This document shows, in pieces, positions 5,514 through 61,166 of a stretch of 64,000 bases of DNA. The position numbers were made by a program, and so were the translations under genes. The notes under the pieces were generated by a model, which was not told the origin of the DNA, did not search any database, and was given only the letters and a program-made list of their open reading frames with translations. Source of the stretch: a virus; the UHGV virus genome UHGV-0248979; one strand, given 5' to 3'. Within the stretch, counting starts at the first letter, position 1; each line of letters opens with the position of its first letter.

Positions 5514-5580
5514 GTTCTCCTAAAATGGTTTCGTTAAGTGAGAGTAACTGAACTCTCACCTAAGTAATATATATCTGAAA
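5514..5580 (-). promoter_or_regulatory. conserved AT-rich box plus 5' leader hairpin cassette (putative phage promoter/leader)
   Basis: TCAGATATATATTAC box followed by GTGAGAGT-loop-ACTCTCAC hairpin then RBS; about 65 bp near-identical to 43040..43107. Confidence 0.4.
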
Positions 5581-5600
5581 TTATTTTTAATGTTGACGAA

Positions 5601-9710: not shown

Positions 9711-9947
9711 ATAATGCCCCCTACCCCCTACCGGTATCCCGAGTAGCAGAATAAAGGGACAGACTGTAAAATTTTAGTACCTGTTATCGGAAGGTACTAA
9801 ATGGAGTGTAGTCTTTAAGCCGTTTGTGCAGCTCATTGAGACTTTCTTTTTTTAGTAGACATGATCTGTCTCCCCAAATGGTTTAATCAATCCGTTTCGA
9901 ATGAAACGTGTCCGTAGGGGCTGAACTGGCACTTCAGTCCCTATTCA

Positions 9948-9969
9948 CTTAAGTAATATATATCTGAAA
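9948..9969. promoter_or_regulatory. AT-rich conserved box (TAAGTAATATATATCTGAAA)
   Basis: Same box as at 5561, 43089 and 47330; lies 27 bp upstream of plus-strand gene 9996 and about 370 bp upstream of minus-strand gene 8839. Confidence 0.35.
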
Positions 9970-9995
9970 TCAATTCCGATCTAAGGAACGTCCCG

Positions 9996-27854: not shown

Positions 27855-27865
27855 AAGGATACGTG

Positions 27866-28258
27866 ATGGCGATCAGTGTTAAAAATGTGCGTGACCGAAT
27901 CACCAACGTAGAGAACCAAATGGCAACTGGCCCACGTGTTGATCCGCAAGTTGCGTCGAAAGCACATAACGCTGCTGATTCATTTTCAGGTTGGACACCC
28001 GGTCGATTAGATTGTGGAGGTAGCTGTAGCTGGACATGCTCAAACGGTTGTACGCATGGTTGTACGAGTTGTTCAGGTACATGTACATCGGTGTGCGTAG
28101 GAAGCTGTTCCTCTGCGTGTGGTAATCAATGCAGTGGTTGTAGCGGAACGTGTTCGGGTGGTTGTTCAGGATGTAGTGGGACTTGTAGTGGGGGATGTGC
28201 TGGACGTTGTTCCTCGGGGTGTAGTGGTTCTTGTGCAGGTGGTTGTTCTAACCCATAA
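27866..28258 (+). CDS. Cys/Ser/Gly-rich repeat protein 1 (putative radical SAM substrate, RiPP-precursor-like)
   Basis: About 50-aa N-terminal region with KNVRDRI motif, then core starting CGGSCSWTCS with roughly 25 Cys in Cx2C/Cx3C spacing; AAGGA RBS. Confidence 0.55.
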   Translation: MAISVKNVRDRITNVENQMATGPRVDPQVASKAHNAADSFSGWTPGRLDCGGSCSWTCSNGCTHGCTSCSGTCTSVCVGSCSSACGNQCSGCSGTCSGGCSGCSGTCSGGCAGRCSSGCSGSCAGGCSNP

Positions 28259-28277
28259 AAAATAAGGATCAATTCGA

Positions 28278-29192
28278 ATGGAAGAACTTACTAGACCGAC
28301 GGTATCCGATAAGCTTTACAGTAATCCGAGAACGTTAAACGTGATTACAACATCCAAATGTAATCTGGACTGTAGCTTCTGCGGCGGAGCCTATTACATG
28401 CATAGAGAGGATACAACCGCAGAAGTACAAAAGGAAAGTATTATCGAGGCGCTGGAAAATAACCCGACTATCACAAATATCCAATGGTCAGGGGGCGAAC
28501 CATTACTTGCCACGCGTAAAATTGATACCCTTATAGAAGAGATAAGGGAGAAGTATCCTCGTTGCGAACATTACCTGTATACCAATGGTTTAAAAATGCG
28601 TAAATCGCATCTACCGTTGTTAAAGGGTTTTGATAGTATCTTTTTTAGCATGGATGGATTCAAAGAATCAGAGCGTCCGTTCATGCGGATTATCGAAGAA
28701 AAACAATACGAGGTTTTGGAGACAATTTACGAATTGAAAAATATTCGTACTTGGGCGGTTTTGACACGCGAGCGTATTGGGGATAAACGTTGGTACGAAG
28801 ATATAATTGCGTTACATAACCACATTTACCATTATGGTTTTTGTGAGATGTCGCTGGTTTTGGACAAAAACATGCCAAAACCGTTATCTCCCGATCACGT
28901 TATGAACTTTATTTACGGGTATTTTAGAATTCAGGAGAATATAGAAAGACTGAATTCGTCCAATCGAAGTGAATGTGCGTTTACGCTAAATGCGTTATTT
29001 GATGAACCCTGTAACACATGTAGTCGTTGTTTTCGCATTGAGTCTGACGGTGCCCAGAACCAAGTAAAGAACGTTGAAATCGTAACGCAACACGGCTGTA
29101 GTGACTTGGCCAGAAAGGTTGGATTAGATGCTTACGACTATATACGTCGTGTGGTAGGGGCTAAGAATAGAGTCTCAGAAAAACTACGATAA
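28278..29192 (+). CDS. radical SAM enzyme 1
   Basis: CNLDCSFC (Cx3Cx2C) radical SAM cluster motif, GGEPLL SAM-binding motif, C-terminal CNTCSRC cysteines. Confidence 0.7.
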   Translation: MEELTRPTVSDKLYSNPRTLNVITTSKCNLDCSFCGGAYYMHREDTTAEVQKESIIEALENNPTITNIQWSGGEPLLATRKIDTLIEEIREKYPRCEHYLYTNGLKMRKSHLPLLKGFDSIFFSMDGFKESERPFMRIIEEKQYEVLETIYELKNIRTWAVLTRERIGDKRWYEDIIALHNHIYHYGFCEMSLVLDKNMPKPLSPDHVMNFIYGYFRIQENIERLNSSNRSECAFTLNALFDEPCNTCSRCFRIESDGAQNQVKNVEIVTQHGCSDLARKVGLDAYDYIRRVVGAKNRVSEKLR

Positions 29193-29250
29193 TTTTACAG
29201 AAAGTGAATTATAATGTGTCCTAGGGGGCACTAAACCAGTAGGTATTAAA

Positions 29251-29649
29251 ATGGCGATTGGTTTATCTTCTTTAAAGGCCCGGCTAGATAACATAGACTC
29301 TACTGCATTAAAAAATACAGGTGCGGTGCAGAACTATATTCGTGGTAAAGCCACTAATAATAGCGATCTGTTTGGAGGACAGCCGAGAAATCACTATGAC
29401 TGTGGGGGTAGCTGTAGCTGGACGTGCTCAAGTTGTTCGGGCGGCTGTACCGGCAACGCCTCCGGCGGCTGCGGTTCTTCCTGTTCAGCGAACTGTGTTT
29501 CAGGATGTAGTACAGGTTGCACAGGTTGTAGCAGTACCTGCTCAGGAGGGTGCACAGGTAATTGCTCGGGCGGTTGTTCAAGTAGTTGCACCGGAACATG
29601 TTCAGGTTCATGTCGAGGCGGATGTCAGCAATCGTGTACTGGAAGATAA
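29251..29649 (+). CDS. Cys/Ser/Gly-rich repeat protein 2 (putative radical SAM substrate)
   Basis: Core starts DCGGSCSWTCS like protein 1; leader with LKARLDNI motif. Confidence 0.55.
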   Translation: MAIGLSSLKARLDNIDSTALKNTGAVQNYIRGKATNNSDLFGGQPRNHYDCGGSCSWTCSSCSGGCTGNASGGCGSSCSANCVSGCSTGCTGCSSTCSGGCTGNCSGGCSSSCTGTCSGSCRGGCQQSCTGR

Positions 29650-29652
29650 GAA

Positions 29653-30319
29653 ATGATAAGTCTTAAAAACATACGCGACAGATTAGTAACGGCGGAGGGA
29701 TATATCACCACCGCTAATGCAAACAACTATATTGCAAACCAAGGAACGGTTTCCTCAACCAACAATCTCGCAGGATTACCTTTAAGTCATTATAATTGTA
29801 ATGGCGGATGTAGTTGGTCGTGCAGCGGTAGCTGTAGTAAGGGGGCGGGGGGGGGTAAGTAAGCCCTCTAGCGGTGGTTCTACGCCAACCCCTTCAAGAC
29901 CAACCTACGACAACAAAGCCGTTGTTTATGTTGAGTCTAAGCTACACGCTAAAGATACTGTTCGTATCAATTTCTCTACTGGGGCTGTCTTTATTCAATG
30001 CGTAACGTTAACCGGTAGAGAGAAACCGATAAGGGTCTTTAAATCGTTACTGTCTGGAAAGTCCTACGCCTACCCTCAAGTTGCAATGGGTAATGGTATC
30101 ACTGTTAATTTTACAGACGCGGCTAGTTTTAAGATAGACTCTATCGGTAATGCATCTTCTGCTTCTATCTCATTAGAAGTATTAAGTAATTCCGGCGGAA
30201 GCATGGCGATTAAGCAGCAACCGAGTAAATCAAACGGCTTTACTGCAGAATTTGAAGTTACCGGCAGGCAATGGCGTGGCGGGTTCTATACCTTGAACGT
30301 CAGATTGACCGTAAAATAA
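29653..30319 (+). CDS. Cys-motif protein 3 with C-terminal domain, reading frame interrupted at a G9 tract
   Basis: ORF 29653..29862 (leader KNIRDRL, core NCNGGCSWSCSGSCS) stops 2 codons after G9 tract 29847..29855; the +1 frame continues to 30319 without its own plausible start; one fewer G fuses them. Confidence 0.4.
29847..29855 (+). repeat. G9 homopolymer tract (preceded by GGGGGC)
   Basis: Direct read of sequence; coincides with frame break. Confidence 0.9.
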
Positions 30320-30331
30320 TTGGAGTAATCA

Positions 30332-31219
30332 ATGAAAAACGATTTGCATTTAGCCTATAAAACAATTTTCAACCACCCACTTCATATTTCTTCCCCCGAT
30401 TCAATACGCGCTCATTTGGAAGATAAAGTTCGTTTGTTAACCCAGTTACCTGGCGAATGGCCCAAAGTGCGTGGTCGTTTTTTTACCGATCGCAATAACT
30501 ATTCAGTAGAAAACACTTTTAAAATACGCGATCTGACAGCAGAAAGCGTAGTGGTGTTTACCGGTGATTCAGATTTACGCGGTAAATTGGTTGACGGTAA
30601 ATATTTCTTTAGTGACGGTATTCTGAATAATTCTGTAGATTTGGAATTGTTCTTTACGCCATTTAAAGAGTTGAATGCGAAGCCTGTAGCACGACGTTGG
30701 TGGTCTCCAGACTATCTTGGTTCATTCCCGTACTTTTATGCCCTGGTTCCTGTAGAAACAAAAAACTATGTTGATACTGAACCGTATATTGAAATAGAAG
30801 GTTACGAGGAACTTGGCATCAACTGTTTAGCAGATCTGATGGCGTACAGTTACAAATTTATGTGGGATCGTGAACGTTCAGTATGGGTTGCCCTTACAGA
30901 TGAACATGAAATCACAAAACGTATTCGTAAACCATGGATGCAGCATTTAATTCAAACACGTATTGGTGAACATCCGTCATCGGAAGCAGATTTAGCGAAA
31001 CTTGTTAGTTTCTTAATGACGAAAGTCACGTTAACTGATGAAGAAAAAGCGGCAGTGTCGGCGGTATTGGAACGTAACGTAACGTTAGCGGATCTAGAAC
31101 GTTTAAACGTGCGTTATAAAGACCTTAATCGTATTATTGAGGCTTACAATTCACCGTTTGTATTAAAACCTGGAGTTAACGCTTACGACGATCCTTTGTT
31201 ATCCATTGGCTATATTTAA
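30332..31219 (+). CDS. hypothetical protein (295 aa) within radical SAM cluster
   Basis: GGAG RBS 7 nt upstream; no recognisable motif. Confidence 0.55.
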   Translation: MKNDLHLAYKTIFNHPLHISSPDSIRAHLEDKVRLLTQLPGEWPKVRGRFFTDRNNYSVENTFKIRDLTAESVVVFTGDSDLRGKLVDGKYFFSDGILNNSVDLELFFTPFKELNAKPVARRWWSPDYLGSFPYFYALVPVETKNYVDTEPYIEIEGYEELGINCLADLMAYSYKFMWDRERSVWVALTDEHEITKRIRKPWMQHLIQTRIGEHPSSEADLAKLVSFLMTKVTLTDEEKAAVSAVLERNVTLADLERLNVRYKDLNRIIEAYNSPFVLKPGVNAYDDPLLSIGYI

Positions 31220-31226
31220 AAAATAG

Positions 31227-32165
31227 ATGGACTCACCTGCAATGACAACCGACGTAGAGCCAAGGTTATCGAATCGTTTATACAATAAACCCACCGTATT
31301 GTCCGTAGTTGCTACATCCAAATGTAATCTGGACTGTAGCTTCTGCGGCGGAGCCTATTACATGCATCGTGAAGATTCTCCGCGAGAGTTTCAACGTGAA
31401 CGAATTTTGAAAGCGTTGGCGTCTAACCCAACCATTACTGAAATTCAGTGGACTGGCGGTGAACCGCTACTGGCAACTCGAAAGATTGAGGCGTTTGTCG
31501 ACGAATTAAAAACGATCCGTCCTGAACTCAAACACCAGATGTTCACGAACGGTTTAAAAATGCGTAAATCGCATCTACCGTTGTTAAAACAATTCGATGG
31601 TATATATGTTAGCATCGATGGGTTTAATCTTTCTGAACGGCCTTTTAAGCGCTTTATTGATGATAATTGTCATGAAGCGTTAGAAGTAATTTACAGCTTG
31701 AATAATGTTAACACCTGGGCTGTTGTTACGAGGGAGAATTTATCCAATAAAAGATGGCATGAAGATATCATTCAATTACATACTGCTATCTATCATTACG
31801 GTTTTCGTTCCATGTCCTTATTACTAGATAAAAACATGCCAAAACCGTTATCTCCCGATCACGTTATGAACTTTATTTACGGGTATTTTAGAATTCAGGA
31901 GAATATAGAAAGATTAAACGTTCTAAATTCTAGAGACTGCGGTTTTATTGTAAACAGATTCTTCGATCATGCTTGTAATGTCTGTAGCGAAAGTCTCAGG
32001 ATAGACGCGGACGGGGAAGAAAACCAACTTAAAAATGTACCAATAACTACAAAAGCAGGGTGTAACCAACTAGCCTCCTCAATAGGTGTAGAAGCTTACG
32101 AGTACATTCGTCGTGTAGTGATGGCAGAGCGTAATAGAGGGGCGGAAAATGAGTCAAGAAAATAG
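31227..32165 (+). CDS. radical SAM enzyme 2 (paralog of enzyme 1)
   Basis: CNLDCSFCGG motif; three blocks of identical nucleotide sequence shared with 28278..29192. Confidence 0.7.
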   Translation: MDSPAMTTDVEPRLSNRLYNKPTVLSVVATSKCNLDCSFCGGAYYMHREDSPREFQRERILKALASNPTITEIQWTGGEPLLATRKIEAFVDELKTIRPELKHQMFTNGLKMRKSHLPLLKQFDGIYVSIDGFNLSERPFKRFIDDNCHEALEVIYSLNNVNTWAVVTRENLSNKRWHEDIIQLHTAIYHYGFRSMSLLLDKNMPKPLSPDHVMNFIYGYFRIQENIERLNVLNSRDCGFIVNRFFDHACNVCSESLRIDADGEENQLKNVPITTKAGCNQLASSIGVEAYEYIRRVVMAERNRGAENESRK

Positions 32166-33471
32166 TTATCCTAAACAACTGACTTATCAAATTGTTACAA
32201 ATTTATCGTGTAACTTGGACTGTGAGTATTGTTACGAACGTAAGTATCCCCGTAATAACAAAGCGGCGGATATTGTTGATTTTCTACACGCTTGTTTTGA
32301 ACGAGATAAAGATCTGACAAACATCGAGGTCGTTATCGATATCATCGGTGGTGAGCCGTTTATTCAGCCTAAACTATTAAAGGCGGCATTTGAAACCGCA
32401 GAAGAGTTATGCGAAAAACATAATCGGCCGTTTATGTTTAGCATCTCTACTAACGGAACGTTGTTAGATAGACCTTTGAATAGAGAAATTATTGAACGTT
32501 GGAAAGACAGGCTGTCTATCGGCGTGTCTATTGATGGATTGCCCGAATCGCACGATAAGTACCGGATTTTTACAACAACTCGTGAAGGATCTTACGAGGC
32601 CGCTGTGCGGGGCTATAACTACTTAAAAGAAGTCGGTATTGCAGAACTTGGTGTAAAAGCGACCTTTACGTTGGAAACGTTACCGTTCTATGCTGCTGGA
32701 ATGAAATCATTAATTGATATTACTGGCGGCGGAACTATTTCTGGCAACGTAACCTTCGAAGACATTATGCCACGGAGCATGGCTACTTCAATCGCATTGC
32801 AGATGATGGACGTGGTAGATTATTGGGTTGAGAAGGGCTTACACACCAACCCACGTAACACTTTGTCGCACATCATTCCAGACGGGTTAGATTTTGATAC
32901 TATCTGGGAACCAAACTGGCGTGATCAGTTATTGTATAACGATACTGTACGTTTGAATCCAGAACGTTTACGCCCGTTCTGCGGTACGTTAACACACATG
33001 ACCTGCTTAGGATTTGATCGTAAGATCTTCGGTTGTAACCGTTTCATGTCAACCGTAACATCACGTTCTGCCGTATTTGAATTAGTTGGGCGGGAATTCG
33101 TTAGCTTAGATGACGGGAAATTGCTGGAAGAGATTCAGACGCAATACACCAACTATCCTGAAACCTGTTTAGGTTGTCCAATGAAGCACGCTTGTGGTAG
33201 TTGTGCGGCTGCATCTTACGAGAATGGAGAAGGGACGCTAGAAGATCGCAAAGCTTATCACGCTGAACGCCGTCAATGCGGCTGGACAACTGCAAAGTTG
33301 ATGGTTGCGGAATATTGGAAACAGAAAATGGGCACGACGTCAGTGAAAGATTTTCATGACAATAGCATGTGTTATTGCCCTCGTTGCGTACGTGAACGTA
33401 CCCAGAAAGAAAAACAATTGAGAGAAACCAAAGATGAAGCCAATTCTGATCCACAATATTACGAAGCGTAA
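32149..33471 (+). CDS. radical SAM enzyme 3 with C-terminal SPASM-like Cys-rich domain
   Basis: CNLDCEYC motif, GGEP motif, C-terminal CLGCPMKHACGSC and further Cys pairs resembling SPASM/twitch auxiliary cluster domain. Confidence 0.7.
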   Translation: MSQENSYPKQLTYQIVTNLSCNLDCEYCYERKYPRNNKAADIVDFLHACFERDKDLTNIEVVIDIIGGEPFIQPKLLKAAFETAEELCEKHNRPFMFSISTNGTLLDRPLNREIIERWKDRLSIGVSIDGLPESHDKYRIFTTTREGSYEAAVRGYNYLKEVGIAELGVKATFTLETLPFYAAGMKSLIDITGGGTISGNVTFEDIMPRSMATSIALQMMDVVDYWVEKGLHTNPRNTLSHIIPDGLDFDTIWEPNWRDQLLYNDTVRLNPERLRPFCGTLTHMTCLGFDRKIFGCNRFMSTVTSRSAVFELVGREFVSLDDGKLLEEIQTQYTNYPETCLGCPMKHACGSCAAASYENGEGTLEDRKAYHAERRQCGWTTAKLMVAEYWKQKMGTTSVKDFHDNSMCYCPRCVRERTQKEKQLRETKDEANSDPQYYEA

Positions 33472-40027: not shown

Positions 40028-40459
40028 TTAGCGAACGTTGTGTGCTAAGTACATCAGCGTACGAGTGTCGATGTCACGAGAAGTTTGTGACATCTGACTC
40101 AGTAACTTGTTGGCAGTAGGGTCATTGTAAACACGACTTAACCATTCGTCAACCATTTCTGGTACAGTGTCGACAAGAAGCGGATAGTTAAGATTTTCCA
40201 GTGTGTATTCAACGAATTCGTGCATCAGATTCTGGTCACGATGCATAGTGTCACCTAACTCACCTACAGGGTACTCTTCGCGAGGACGTTTACCCCAGCT
40301 ACAGATGTGCATGTAGTTAGTATTCACAATTTCCTGATATTCTTCTAACTTAACTAAATCGAAGTCAGTATTTGGACGACAGAAACCTGCTAGAACGCCC
40401 AAAGCAATCGGATTGTTACGAATGTAGTTACGGATTTCATCATTTAATACGAAAAACAT
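40028..40459 (-). CDS. hypothetical protein (143 aa), paralog of 41320..41748
   Basis: Similar length and N-terminal ..IRNYIR.. motif to 41320 gene. Confidence 0.5.
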   Translation of the reverse strand: MFFVLNDEIRNYIRNNPIALGVLAGFCRPNTDFDLVKLEEYQEIVNTNYMHICSWGKRPREEYPVGELGDTMHRDQNLMHEFVEYTLENLNYPLLVDTVPEMVDEWLSRVYNDPTANKLLSQMSQTSRDIDTRTLMYLAHNVR

Positions 40460-40535
40460 TTTAATACTCCTTTAGGTAAATACAATAATAGAGGGGTGGT
40501 AATCCACCCCTTGGTTGAATTTAGAATGTCGTTAA

Positions 40536-43039: not shown

Positions 43040-43107
43040 TATTCTCCTAAAATGGTTTCGTTAAGTGAGAGTAACTGAACTCTCACCTAGGTAATATATA
43101 TCTGAAA
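43040..43107 (-). promoter_or_regulatory. conserved AT-rich box plus 5' leader hairpin cassette
   Basis: Near-identical (1 mismatch) to 5514..5580. Confidence 0.4.
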
Positions 43108-43116
43108 ATATTTTTA

Positions 43117-47305: not shown

Positions 47306-47350
47306 GAGTGAACGTAAATTTCACTCTCTCCTAGGTAATATATATCTGAG
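47306..47350 (-). promoter_or_regulatory. AT-rich box plus leader hairpin (variant)
   Basis: CTAGGTAATATATATCTGAG box plus GAGTGAA-loop-TCACTC hairpin upstream of gene 46425..47276. Confidence 0.4.
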
Positions 47351-47393
47351 AAAAAATATAAAAACCGTAGGATGGACTTAGTCCATCCTACGG
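47351..47393 (-). terminator. rho-independent terminator
   Basis: CCGTAGGATGGACT/AGTCCATCCTACGG hairpin plus T-tract on minus strand after tail spike gene. Confidence 0.6.
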
Positions 47394-61116: not shown

Positions 61117-61152
61117 GTGAGAATTCTCACATAGATGAAATATATCTTAAAT
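61117..61152 (-). promoter_or_regulatory. AT-rich box plus GTGAGA-TCTCAC leader hairpin (variant)
   Basis: AAGATATATTTCATC box and GTGAGAATTCTCAC palindrome upstream of gene 60824..61093. Confidence 0.35.
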
Positions 61153-61166
61153 TTTTTAGACAGCCA

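What the first reader, a model, noticed from the sequence alone, without database searches (positions are those of the whole stretch)
28361..31915. Mosaic identity between the two radical SAM paralogs suggests gene conversion
Radical SAM enzymes 1 and 2 are clearly diverged over most of their length yet share three blocks of perfectly identical nucleotide sequence: about 53 nt (28361-28413 vs 31315-31367), 38 nt (28587-28624 vs 31551-31588) and 84 nt (28866-28949 vs 31832-31915). Perfect nucleotide identity in patches between diverged paralogs is a signature of recent gene conversion, or of an assembly collapse of repeats.
Basis: seen in the sequence. Interest (0 to 1): 0.55.

Follow-up and report, generated by a model that had tools for sequence, protein, structure and literature searches.

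The report
Gene-conversion islands in duplicated phage enzymes
Two anciently diverged copies of a radical SAM enzyme gene in an uncultured jumbo phage keep three short stretches of DNA letter-for-letter identical, because the copies repeatedly overwrite each other there by recombination; this is a clean natural example of a well-known process, not a new kind of system.

Summary
The paralogs c1 (28278-29192) and c2 (31227-32165) are about 57% identical in DNA outside three blocks. The blocks are 100% identical, 54, 38 and 84 nt long, at a constant offset of 2964 nt.

Amino-acid conservation does not explain the blocks. All 54 synonymous-capable codons inside them are identical, against 42 of 122 outside (Fisher p = 4e-19). 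Single-copy orthologs in related phages encode the same motifs with ordinary synonymous differences.

Six further two-copy genomes from independent assemblies, two of them MEGAHIT k=141 contigs, show the same three islands. Their edges differ between lineages. Six lineage-specific substitutions are present in both paralogs of every genome. Conversion is therefore recurrent, recent and probably bidirectional, and assembly collapse is excluded for the window.

However, the repeats do confuse short-read assemblers. Five long contigs end inside block 3, and three short public contigs carry c1/c2 chimeras that switch exactly at the blocks. These chimeras could be real crossovers or misassemblies; I could not decide without reads.

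Verdict: recurrent short-tract ectopic gene conversion, a new example of a known phenomenon, of moderate interest. The surrounding locus encodes CXXX-repeat peptides and radical SAM maturases inside a virion gene module. It is arguably more intriguing than the conversion itself.

The parts
28278..29192 (+). c1: small radical SAM paralog (304 aa). It is the extra copy, inserted between Cys-rich peptide genes pepA and pepB.
   Evidence: ORF. PF04055, 52.6 bits against a cutoff of 29.5. Absent at this position in JN03, pEa_SNUABM_6 and L005. All 65 matching cultured phage records have one small rSAM copy.
31227..32165 (+). c2: small radical SAM paralog (312 aa). It is the positional ortholog of SPN3US-type 'radical SAM superfamily protein 2' and lies just upstream of the large rSAM.
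   Evidence: ORF. PF04055, 49 bits. Synteny with JN03 and pEa_SNUABM_6.
28350..28403 (+). Block 1, c1 copy (54 nt). Encodes T25-H42: the end of beta1 plus the CX3CX2C iron-sulfur cluster loop.
   Evidence: Structure model.
31314..31367 (+). Block 1, c2 copy (54 nt), 100% identical to 28350-28403.
28587..28624 (+). Block 2, c1 copy (38 nt). Encodes G104-K116 (NGLKMRKSHLPLLK), following the strand at residues 97-102.
31551..31588 (+). Block 2, c2 copy (38 nt), 100% identical to 28587-28624.
28866..28949 (+). Block 3, c1 copy (84 nt). Encodes K197-R224 (KNMPKPLSPDHVMNFIYGYFRIQENIER): a loop plus the first part of the long helix 205-229.
31830..31913 (+). Block 3, c2 copy (84 nt), 100% identical to 28866-28949. 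Five public long contigs of this phage end inside or at the end of this copy.
27863..28258 (+). pepA: Cys-rich CXXX-repeat peptide (131 aa) immediately upstream of c1. Positions 28010-28043 form a small fourth near-identity patch with pepB (31/34 nt here; 34/34 in L006).
   Evidence: TIGR04114, 20.1 bits against a cutoff of 20; phrog_6085.
29251..29649 (+). pepB: Cys-rich CXXX-repeat peptide (132 aa). Its patch at 29398-29431 is paired with the pepA patch.
   Evidence: (TIGR04114, 22.3 bits).
29653..29862 (+). pepC: short Cys-rich peptide (69 aa) ending in a poly-G tract (29845-29853).
30332..31219 (+). p295: conserved 295-aa protein of unknown function (phrog_8030). It lies inside the 2964-nt unit between the repeats.
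32149..33471 (+). bigRS: 440-aa radical SAM protein. Its best NCBIfam match is the CXXX-repeat-target peptide maturase family.
   Evidence: PF04055. (TIGR04115, 118.7 bits, below the cutoff of 350).

Best explanation
c1 and c2 are anciently diverged paralogs. Both are intact and under purifying selection. They undergo recurrent, short-tract, non-reciprocal homologous recombination (ectopic gene conversion) with each other. The exchange is confined to three islands of 38-95 nt, which code for active-site-proximal core motifs of the radical SAM fold.

Inferred mechanism: during recombination-rich phage DNA replication, a strand from one copy pairs with the other copy. Pairing succeeds only where a long enough run of perfect identity exists. 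The heteroduplex cannot extend into flanks that are about 57% identical, where the longest shared run is 8 nt. Mismatches inside the island are therefore either erased or copied to the partner, and island edges creep by a few nucleotides. The islands are self-perpetuating: identity permits conversion, and conversion restores identity. The rest of the two genes stays diverged, possibly also because selection preserves different substrate preferences.

What is shown: the identity, its statistical excess at synonymous sites, its dependence on having two copies, its recurrence in several lineages, and transfer in the c1->c2 direction, with one likely c2->c1 case. What is inferred: the molecular mechanism, the role of a minimum pairing length, and any selective component.
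For: (1) There are three perfect blocks of 84, 54 and 38 nt against a background of 57% identity. The next longest run is 8 nt, and no shuffle reaches these lengths.

(2) Among codons that encode the same degenerate amino acid, 54/54 are identical inside the blocks against 42/122 outside (Fisher p = 4e-19). The same holds in the other two-copy genomes: 51-53 of 53-55 inside against 39-47% outside.

(3) Pairs of single-copy genomes show no significant excess of synonymous identity in the block columns. L005/JN03 give 0.58 against 0.46, L005/pEa6 0.45 against 0.37, and JN03/pEa6 0.30 against 0.42, with p = 0.14-0.44. The alignment shows JN03 encoding the same motifs with different codons. The identity therefore depends on having a paralog, not on a built-in nucleotide constraint.

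(4) Seven distinct two-copy genomes (W, L026, L006, L018, L003, L031, L004) all have islands at the same three places, but with different edges: block 1 is 51-60 nt, block 2 is 38-47 nt and block 3 is 83-95 nt. Even W and L006, which are 98-99% identical, differ in the extent of block 3.

(5) Of 164 core block columns, 9 are polymorphic among the seven genomes. At 6 of them both paralogs carry the same base in all seven genomes, in three different lineage patterns. This requires several independent conversions after the lineages split.

(6) Direction. L003/L004 c2 carries the c1-type 'VITT' at the block 1 edge, where all other c2 genes have 'VVAT'. W/L006 c2 carries the c1-type 'DKNM' at the block 3 edge, where other c2 genes have 'DA.M'. 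Block 3 gives c2 the c1-shared sequence 'YFRIQEN', where single-copy c2 has 'YYQVQDN'. One of only three c1 differences between W and L026 is the first mismatch next to block 2, and it now matches c2.

(7) In the block columns each c2 is nearer to c1 genes (distance 0.02-0.06) than to the single-copy ortholog L005. Outside the blocks its nearest relatives are c2 orthologs.

(8) The three longest exact matches between c1 and an unconverted single-copy c2 (L005; 20, 17 and 17 nt) fall inside the three islands. This fits seeding at the best pre-existing microhomologies.

(9) A fourth small patch between pepA and pepB behaves the same way. It is 34/34 identical in L006 and 32/34 in L003/L004, with genome-specific variants shared by both copies.

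(10) Both copies exist in independent assemblies, including k=141 MEGAHIT contigs.
Against: No recombination event is observed directly. Between the two clades, synonymous change in the blocks is lower than in the c1 flanks: 4/54 against 62/224 codons differ, p = 1e-3, and dS is 0.20 against 0.62. Neutral conversion alone does not predict this. It needs an extra assumption, such as continued gene flow between clades through the islands, or some nucleotide-level selection.

Why tracts stop where they do is inferred, not tested; it could be a pairing limit or selection against converting specificity regions. The origin of c1 is unresolved. The four-point sums are 0.87-0.92 for grouping c1 with c2, against 0.89-0.95 for the next-best grouping. 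The data therefore do not show whether the islands are relics maintained since a duplication or were seeded after a horizontal acquisition. One block codon in L031 c2 (AAA->TTT) is not homogenised.
Confidence: 0.85

Rival explanations
1. Adaptive recombination joints. In this reading the identical blocks are kept by selection because they let the phage swap the segments between them. That would produce chimeric maturases or delete and duplicate the 2964-nt peptide cassette, much as conserved motifs do in T-even tail-fiber adhesin genes. Conversion would be the means, and module shuffling the selected function.
For: Three short public contigs carry chimeras that switch exactly at the blocks. 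L014 reads pepA-[c1 5'|block 3|c2 3']-bigRS, a deletion type. L016 reads p295-[c2 5'|block 3|c1 3']-pepB, a duplication or circle type. L015 reads pepA-[c1|block 1|c2 middle|block 3|c1]-pepB. Blocks show less synonymous divergence between clades than the c1 flanks. Block positions are stable across lineages. [quoted passage not shown]
Against: The chimeras have exactly the topologies a de Bruijn assembler produces at a two-copy repeat: a bypass path, a closed loop and a double switch. All are on short contigs of 1.4-2.7 kb. Five long contigs of the same phage break inside block 3, so assemblers demonstrably fail there. No long contig carries a chimeric gene or a deleted or duplicated cassette. 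The deletion product would lose p295, which is conserved in all relatives. A passive self-sustaining process explains the stable positions without invoking selection.
Confidence: 0.1
2. Nucleotide-level functional element. Here the blocks are identical because the DNA or RNA sequence itself is functional, for example as a binding site, an RNA structure or the target of a shared regulator. Purifying selection would then conserve it independently in each copy, without recombination.
For: Blocks evolve more slowly at synonymous sites than the c1 flanks between clades. The antisense strand of block 2 contains a small palindrome (ATGCG-N5-CGCAT) with z = -3.3.
Against: Single-copy orthologs show ordinary synonymous divergence in the same columns. 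Lineage-specific substitutions occur in both copies together, which independent purifying selection cannot produce. Island edges move between closely related genomes. There is no Rfam match. The sense strands of the blocks show no significant folding, with z = -0.8, -1.5 and +1.4. No third copy or complementary copy exists in the window.
Confidence: 0.03
3. Assembly or polishing artefact. In this reading the window's two copies or their perfect identity were created by the assembler, through repeat collapse, bubble popping or consensus homogenisation.
For: The repeats demonstrably disturb assemblies. Contigs end at c2 positions 653-687, and chimeric short contigs exist.
Against: The same architecture, with perfect blocks, is found in more than 14 independent long contigs. 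They come from different projects and assemblers, including NCBI JACXXQ010000002.1 and ENA SPAdes-style NODE contigs, and L027 and L031 were built at k=141, longer than any block. Different lineages carry different block sequences that still match within each genome. An assembler cannot turn 57% identity into 100% identity with sharp edges, and 150-nt reads span the blocks into unique flanks.
Confidence: 0.02

Closest known systems
Interlocus (ectopic) gene conversion and concerted evolution of bacterial paralogs, e.g. tufA/tufB in Salmonella and rRNA operons in E. coli (PMC8022953, seen; tuf example from my own knowledge)
   Same: There is non-reciprocal homogenisation of dispersed direct repeats within one genome. 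Synonymous sites are homogenised. Lineage-specific changes are shared by the paralogs.
   Different: Homogenisation here does not cover the whole gene. It is limited to three islands of 38-95 nt inside genes whose remaining synonymous sites are saturated. It occurs in a lytic-type jumbo phage genome rather than a bacterial chromosome.
Recombination at conserved motifs in T-even phage tail-fiber adhesin genes, i.e. g37/g38 His-boxes and glycine-rich motifs (Tetart et al. 1996, 1998, as cited in Trojet et al. 2011, PMC3157838)
   Same: In both cases short conserved sequence motifs inside otherwise highly diverged phage genes act as the places where homologous exchange happens. The flanking segments stay hypervariable.
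   Different: In T-even phages the documented exchanges are mostly between alleles of different phages and swap host-range segments. Here the exchange is between two paralogs 3 kb apart in the same genome, and it homogenises the motifs themselves. Swapping of the segments between motifs is not established: the chimeric contigs are ambiguous.
'Partial' concerted evolution of duplicated genes, in which conversion persists only in conserved segments after the rest has diverged (population-genetic models such as Teshima and Innan; examples in globin and opsin genes; from my own knowledge)
   Same: The pattern is a mosaic of identical tracts in conserved exonic segments with sharp boundaries against diverged sequence. 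Tract edges vary among lineages.
   Different: The system is viral, the tracts are very short, and the flanking divergence is much deeper, with dS saturated.
CXXX-repeat peptide / radical SAM maturase systems (NCBIfam TIGR04115 maturase, TIGR04114 repeat target); structurally, the sactipeptide/ranthipeptide-type maturases CteB and SuiB and the sulfatase maturase anSME
   Same: The locus combines Cys-rich CXXX-repeat peptides with radical SAM enzymes. bigRS matches TIGR04115 best, and pepA/pepB reach the TIGR04114 cutoff. The c1 model is closest to CteB (5why/5wgg), SuiB and anSME.
   Different: bigRS scores 118.7 bits, far below the family cutoff of 350. c1 and c2 match no specific NCBIfam family at its cutoff. 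The locus sits in a phage virion-structure module. I found no paper describing it. This is context for the finding, not the finding itself.

Membership tests
Ectopic gene conversion / concerted evolution between paralogs | Identical tracts are significantly longer than the flanking divergence allows. | tested here: met
   The runs are 84, 54 and 38 nt against a next-best run of 8 nt. None of 20,000 shuffles reaches them, even when the amino-acid pattern is kept.
Ectopic gene conversion / concerted evolution between paralogs | Homogenisation affects synonymous sites and is not explained by protein constraint. | tested here: met
   54/54 codons are identical inside the blocks against 42/122 outside (p = 4e-19). 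Single-copy orthologs show no excess in the same columns.
Ectopic gene conversion / concerted evolution between paralogs | Phylogenetic incongruence: paralogs group by genome inside tracts and by orthology outside. | tested here: met
   Nearest-neighbour distances inside and outside the blocks; identity tables.
Ectopic gene conversion / concerted evolution between paralogs | Lineage-specific substitutions are shared by both paralogs (co-variation). | tested here: met
   Six of the 9 polymorphic core-block columns agree between paralogs in 7/7 genomes, in three lineage patterns.
Ectopic gene conversion / concerted evolution between paralogs | Both copies physically exist as assembled. | tested here: met
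   More than 14 independent long contigs show both copies, including two built at k=141. There is no long-read confirmation.
Ectopic gene conversion / concerted evolution between paralogs | Direct observation of transfer of a marker from one copy to the other. | not testable with these tools
   This needs marked phage and passaging, or read-level population data.
Repeat-induced assembly artefact | The pattern is restricted to one assembly or assembler and disappears when k exceeds the repeat length. | tested here: not met
   The blocks are present in the k141 contigs L027 and L031 and in several projects. Short chimeric contigs (L014-L016) and contig ends inside block 3 do fit this family.
Motif-mediated module shuffling (T-even adhesin type) | Recombinants exist whose exchange points lie in the conserved motifs and which carry swapped variable segments. 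| tested here: inconclusive
   L014, L015 and L016 have exactly this structure, but they cannot be told apart from misassemblies without reads.
Radical SAM superfamily (PF04055) | A CX3CX2C cluster motif and a Pfam score above the gathering threshold. | tested here: met
   c1 scores 52.6 bits and c2 49 bits against a cutoff of 29.5. C28, C32 and C35 are invariant in 25 homologs. The model has a partial TIM-barrel fold.
CXXX-repeat-target radical SAM peptide maturase (TIGR04115) with TIGR04114 targets | A score at or above NCBIfam's curated cutoff. | tested here: not met
   bigRS scores 118.7 bits against a cutoff of 350. c1 and c2 have no specific family at cutoff. pepA (20.1 bits) and pepB (22.3 bits) just reach the repeat model's cutoff of 20. 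The locus resembles this system but is not a member by the curated criteria.

The most novel reading that the evidence does not exclude
The three identical islands might not be only a by-product of recombination. They could be maintained as recombination joints of a modular maturase pair. Crossovers at them would then really occur at appreciable frequency in natural populations, making the chimeric contigs L014-L016 genuine. The products would be hybrid radical SAM enzymes and deletion or duplication of the 2964-nt peptide cassette. This would give the phage a built-in way to vary which Cys-rich virion-module peptides are made and how they are modified.
Probability: 0.1. Interest if true: 0.6.

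Novelty: new member of a known kind. Interest (0 to 1): 0.35.

Why it matters
This is an unusually well-resolved natural example of partial concerted evolution in a virus. There are three islands of 38-95 nt, seven genomes, datable edge movements, and co-varying substitutions. The genes around the islands are saturated at synonymous sites.

It gives a usable lower bound on the identity length that supports homologous exchange in a jumbo phage.

It has a practical consequence as well. These 38-95-nt repeats break or scramble short-read assemblies, so public protein databases now hold chimeric 'radical SAM' proteins (P0002, P0003, P0004) that may not exist.

It also draws attention to an undescribed, widely conserved locus in the virion module of SPN3US-like jumbo phages, made of CXXX-repeat peptides and radical SAM enzymes. 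That locus may deserve study in its own right.

Tried and rejected
(1) Amino-acid conservation as the whole explanation. Rejected: JN03, pEa6 and L005 encode the same motifs with different codons.

(2) An RNA element or known RNA family. There is no Rfam hit at E<=1 and no significant fold on the sense strand.

(3) A third 'template' copy or an inverted copy elsewhere in the window, as in a diversity-generating or cassette system. None is found within 3 mismatches on either strand. The blocks are perfect rather than adenine-biased, so a DGR-like reading was dropped. I did not search for a reverse transcriptase.

(4) Close cultured relatives with two copies. There are none: 65 phage records each have a single match, and megablast finds only the bigRS region in JN03 and pEa_SNUABM_6.

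(5) An exact 84-mer scan of IMG/VR gave 0 hits, because relatives differ by one base. The genome-contig scan found nothing.

(7) Literature searches for the phage Cys-rich peptide/rSAM locus returned nothing relevant.

(8) The origin of c1 could not be resolved by a four-point test on dN outside the blocks: 0.87-0.92 against 0.89-0.95.

(9) Whether chimeras L014-L016 are real could not be decided without reads.

Full report
**1. The observation**

Both are radical SAM proteins: PF04055 scores 52.6 and 49 bits against a cutoff of 29.5.

A protein-guided codon alignment gives 66% nt and 62% aa identity overall. It contains three perfect runs:
- 28866-28949 = 31830-31913 (84 nt)
- 28350-28403 = 31314-31367 (54 nt)
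- 28587-28624 = 31551-31588 (38 nt)

All three lie at the same offset of 2964 nt. The next longest identical run is 8 nt. Two coordinate ranges are slightly off: 28361-28413 should be 28350-28403, and 31832-31915 should be 31830-31913. Each block occurs exactly twice in the window on either strand, even with 3 mismatches allowed. They are the longest exact direct repeats in the 64 kb.

**2. More than chance, and more than protein conservation**

Outside the blocks the genes are 57% identical. Synonymous sites there are saturated (dS not computable) and dN is 0.41.

Shuffling the variable sites 20,000 times gave a longest run of 37 nt. A stricter shuffle keeps the amino-acid pattern and permutes only the synonymous patterns among codons with the same amino acid. 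It gave a maximum of 57 nt and never reached 84, 54 or 38.

Among codons encoding the same degenerate amino acid, 54/54 are identical inside the blocks and 42/122 outside (Fisher p = 4e-19).

[quoted passage not shown] These are TSKCNLDCSFCGGAYYMH with the CX3CX2C cluster motif, NGLKMRKSHLPLLK, and KNMPKPLSPDHVMNFIYGYFRIQENIER. However, Salmonella phage JN03 and Erwinia phage pEa_SNUABM_6 encode the same motifs with different codons. The 3' half of block 3 (YFRIQEN) is not even conserved in protein among orthologs: it reads YYQVQDN in L005, YWKILDN in JN03 and YNKMEDQ in pEa6.

**3. Genomic context**

The window comes from an uncultured relative of SPN3US-like jumbo phages (Seoulvirus, Machinavirus). 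Only the large rSAM gene gives a megablast hit, at 72-75% identity.

In JN03 and pEa_SNUABM_6 the locus reads: giant structural protein, virion structural protein 20, three adjacent Cys-rich peptides, a 295-aa protein, ONE small rSAM, and a large rSAM. All 65 cultured phage records with a homolog have a single copy.

In the window an extra small rSAM (c1) sits between the first and second peptide. The order is pepA 27863-28258, c1, pepB 29251-29649, pepC 29653-29862, an extra ORF to 30319, p295 30332-31219, c2, and bigRS 32149-33471.

bigRS matches the CXXX-repeat-target peptide maturase family best (TIGR04115, 118.7 bits, below the cutoff of 350). pepA and pepB just reach the cutoff of the Cys-rich repeat model TIGR04114. 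The AlphaFold model of c1 (pLDDT 86) is closest to the peptide-modifying enzymes CteB, SuiB and anSME, and to viperins. On that model:
- Block 1 covers the end of beta1 and the cluster loop (residues 25-42).
- Block 2 covers residues 104-116, after the strand at 97-102.
- Block 3 covers residues 197-224, a loop plus the start of the long helix 205-229.

**4. Comparative evidence**

Public metagenome and viral contigs supplied six further distinct genomes that carry both c1 and c2. They fall into groups:
- L006 and L018 are 98-99% identical to the window.
- L026 is about 99.7% identical to the window.
- L003 (= L007), L004 and L031 form a second clade, with c1 about 90% and c2 only about 75% identical to the window.
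- Many further contigs have c1 and c2 identical or nearly so to the window (L021-L025 and L028-L030 identical; L027 differs by one base in c2).

Relatives L005 and L008-L010 have only c2.

Every two-copy genome has perfect islands at the same three places, but the edges differ. Block 1 is 51-60 nt, block 2 is 38-47 nt and block 3 is 83-95 nt. Even the window and L006 differ in block 3, 84 against 95 nt.

Within the 164 columns common to all islands, 9 are polymorphic among the seven genomes. At 6 of these, both paralogs carry the same base in all seven genomes. The patterns are second clade versus first clade (4 sites), L003 alone (1 site), and L004+L031 (1 site). The only exception is an AAA->TTT codon in L031 c2.

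This co-variation cannot come from independent purifying selection. It requires several conversions after these lineages separated.

In contrast, pairs of single-copy genomes show no significant excess of synonymous identity in the block columns: 0.58 against 0.46, 0.45 against 0.37 and 0.30 against 0.42, with p = 0.14-0.44.

**5. Direction and seeding**

At island edges c2 has taken c1-type residues. L003/L004 c2 has VITT where all other c2 genes have VVAT. W/L006 c2 has DKNM where other c2 genes have DA.M. So c1->c2 transfer is shown by parsimony.

One of only three c1 differences between the window and L026 is the first mismatch 5' of block 2, and it now equals c2. This suggests c2->c1 transfer also happens.

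The three longest exact matches between c1 and an unconverted single-copy c2 (L005; 20, 17 and 17 nt) lie inside the three islands. This fits nucleation at the best pre-existing microhomologies. It fits equally well with retention of identity where protein constraint slowed divergence.

A fourth, smaller patch behaves the same way between pepA and pepB, at the DCGGSCSWTCS motif. It is 34/34 in L006 and 32/34 in L003/L004, with genome-specific shared variants. It is 31/34 in the window (28010-28043 against 29398-29431), but only 27-28/34 in L005/L009. Short-patch conversion therefore looks like a general property of this locus, which favours a passive explanation.

**6. Most likely mechanism**

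The mechanism is recurrent short-tract ectopic gene conversion. Strand exchange between the copies can start and persist only where identity is long enough. It is stopped by flanks where no shared run exceeds 8 nt. New mutations in an island are then either removed or copied to the partner, and edges creep by a few bases.

The identity, its paralog dependence, its recurrence and its direction are shown. The pairing-length limit and any selection against converting specificity-determining segments are inferred.

One detail is not explained by neutral conversion. Between the two clades the islands have diverged less at synonymous sites than the c1 flanks: 4/54 against 62/224 codons differ, p = 1e-3, and dS is 0.20 against 0.62. 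For c2 the contrast is 0.41 against about 4.

A plausible but untested reason involves exchange between co-infecting phages of different clades. The islands are the only parts of these genes similar enough for such exchange, so they may remain a shared pool while the flanks are isolated. Some nucleotide-level selection cannot be excluded.

**7. Assembly**

Collapse is excluded for the window. The same architecture and blocks appear in more than 14 long contigs from several projects. These include the k=141 MEGAHIT contigs L027 and L031, whose k-mers are longer than any block.

The repeats nevertheless do damage elsewhere. Five contigs of about 225 kb end at c2 positions 653-687, that is, inside or at the end of block 3.

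The proteins P0002, P0003 and P0004 came up as 75-87% 'relatives' of c1. They are chimeras on short contigs:
- L014 (2733 bp) reads pepA-[c1 up to block 3 | c2 after it]-bigRS.
- L016 (1366 bp) reads p295-[c2 up to block 3 | c1 after it]-pepB.
- L015 (1482 bp) reads pepA-[c1 | c2 between blocks 1 and 3 | c1]-pepB.

Each segment is 95-100% identical to the window's c1 or c2.

These are exactly the products of unequal crossover and long-tract conversion at the blocks. They are also exactly the bypass, loop-closure and double-switch paths an assembler takes at a two-copy repeat in a low-coverage graph. I lean towards artefact, at roughly two to one, but cannot decide without reads.

**8. Comparison with what is known**

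The phenomenon is interlocus gene conversion, or partial concerted evolution. It is well known from bacterial paralogs such as rRNA operons (PMC8022953) and from eukaryotic gene families.

The closest phage precedent is exchange at conserved motifs within hypervariable T-even adhesin genes (Tetart et al., cited in PMC3157838). There the exchanges are mainly between phages and swap the variable parts. Here they are between paralogs and homogenise the motifs.

I therefore classify this as a new member of a known kind. Interest is moderate. It is a very clean and finely resolved case with a practical warning for metagenome assembly and protein clustering, but it is not surprising in principle.

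**9. Remaining uncertainty**

- The origin of c1 is open: an old in-lineage duplicate with accelerated evolution, or an acquisition. The four-point sums are 0.87-0.92 against 0.89-0.95.
- c1 is absent from L005, which is the window's closest relative in the flanking genes. L005 has an ancestral-looking pepA-pepB junction. This suggests c1 has moved between lineages by flanking recombination.
- c2 and p295 are far more diverged between the two clades than c1 or bigRS, so the locus is a mosaic.
- None of this affects the main conclusion.

Noticed in passing
window 29845-29853 (poly-G at the end of pepC) and ORF 29801-30319: The G-run is G9 in the window, L006, L023, L024 and L030. It is G10 in L018, L022, L026, L027 and L029, and G11 in L028. 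With G11, pepC is fused in frame to the downstream ORF, giving a 222-aa protein. The downstream ORF is absent from L003, L004, L031 and JN03 and is a remnant in L005. The variation could be phase variation, a frameshift-made fusion, or Illumina homopolymer error.
   Followed up: partly
window 27863-33471; also L001 6067-10263 and L002 6127-10300: All SPN3US-like jumbo phages examined carry two to three Cys-rich CXXX-repeat peptides (phrog_6085), a conserved 295-aa protein and two radical SAM enzymes. These lie inside the virion-structure module, next to a 1,574-1,728-aa structural protein. This looks like a RiPP-type maturation system. I found no paper describing it.
   Followed up: partly
L014 488-1411, L015 449-1363, L016 156-1070 (public ENA contigs); proteins P0002, P0003, P0004: These are c1/c2 chimeric genes that switch exactly at the identity blocks. 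They are stored as separate protein clusters in public collections. They are either real recombinants or repeat-induced misassemblies.
   Followed up: partly
L019, L020, L028, L029, L030 (3' ends of contigs of about 225-230 kb): Five independent long contigs of this phage end at c2 positions 653-687, that is, inside or at the end of block 3. Assemblers tend to linearise the genome at this repeat.
   Followed up: yes
window 28010-28043 vs 29398-29431 (pepA / pepB): This is a fourth, smaller patch of near-identity at the DCGGSCSWTCS motif. It is 31/34 in the window, 34/34 in L006 and 32/34 in L003/L004, with genome-specific variants shared by both peptides. It is only 27-28/34 in the single-rSAM genomes L005/L009.
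   Followed up: yes
window about 29222-29239, between c1 and pepB: There is a small hairpin, GTGTCCTAGGGGGCAC. In L003 it reads GTGCCTTAGCTGGCAC, so the stem is kept through changes on both sides. It may be an RNA processing or terminator-like element that came in with the c1 insertion.
   Followed up: no
window 30332-32165 vs L003/L004: p295 and c2 are far more diverged between the two two-copy clades than the neighbouring genes. Their nt identity is 0.61-0.84, and c2 dS is about 4. By comparison, c1 has dS 0.62 and bigRS is 0.77-0.91 identical. This indicates a mosaic history for the segment.
   Followed up: partly
window 5556-5586, 9945-9975, 43083-43113, 47327-47357, 61127-61157; also 2818-2841 = 40457-40480: A repeated AT-rich motif (TCACCTAAGTAATATATATCTGAAAT...) and a second 24-nt exact repeat are scattered over the window. 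They look like phage promoter or regulatory sequences.
   Followed up: no
L031 c2, alignment columns 339-341 (block 2): One genome has AAA->TTT (Lys->Phe) in c2 only, inside block 2. This is either a fresh change not yet converted or a sequencing or assembly error.
   Followed up: no
protein P0025 (= window c1): The exact c1 protein is recorded in NCBI as EFY2245190.1, 'radical SAM protein [Shigella flexneri]'. It is seen on 46 contigs of up to 227 kb. This hints that the phage occurs in Shigella/Escherichia isolate assemblies and suggests a possible host.
   Followed up: no
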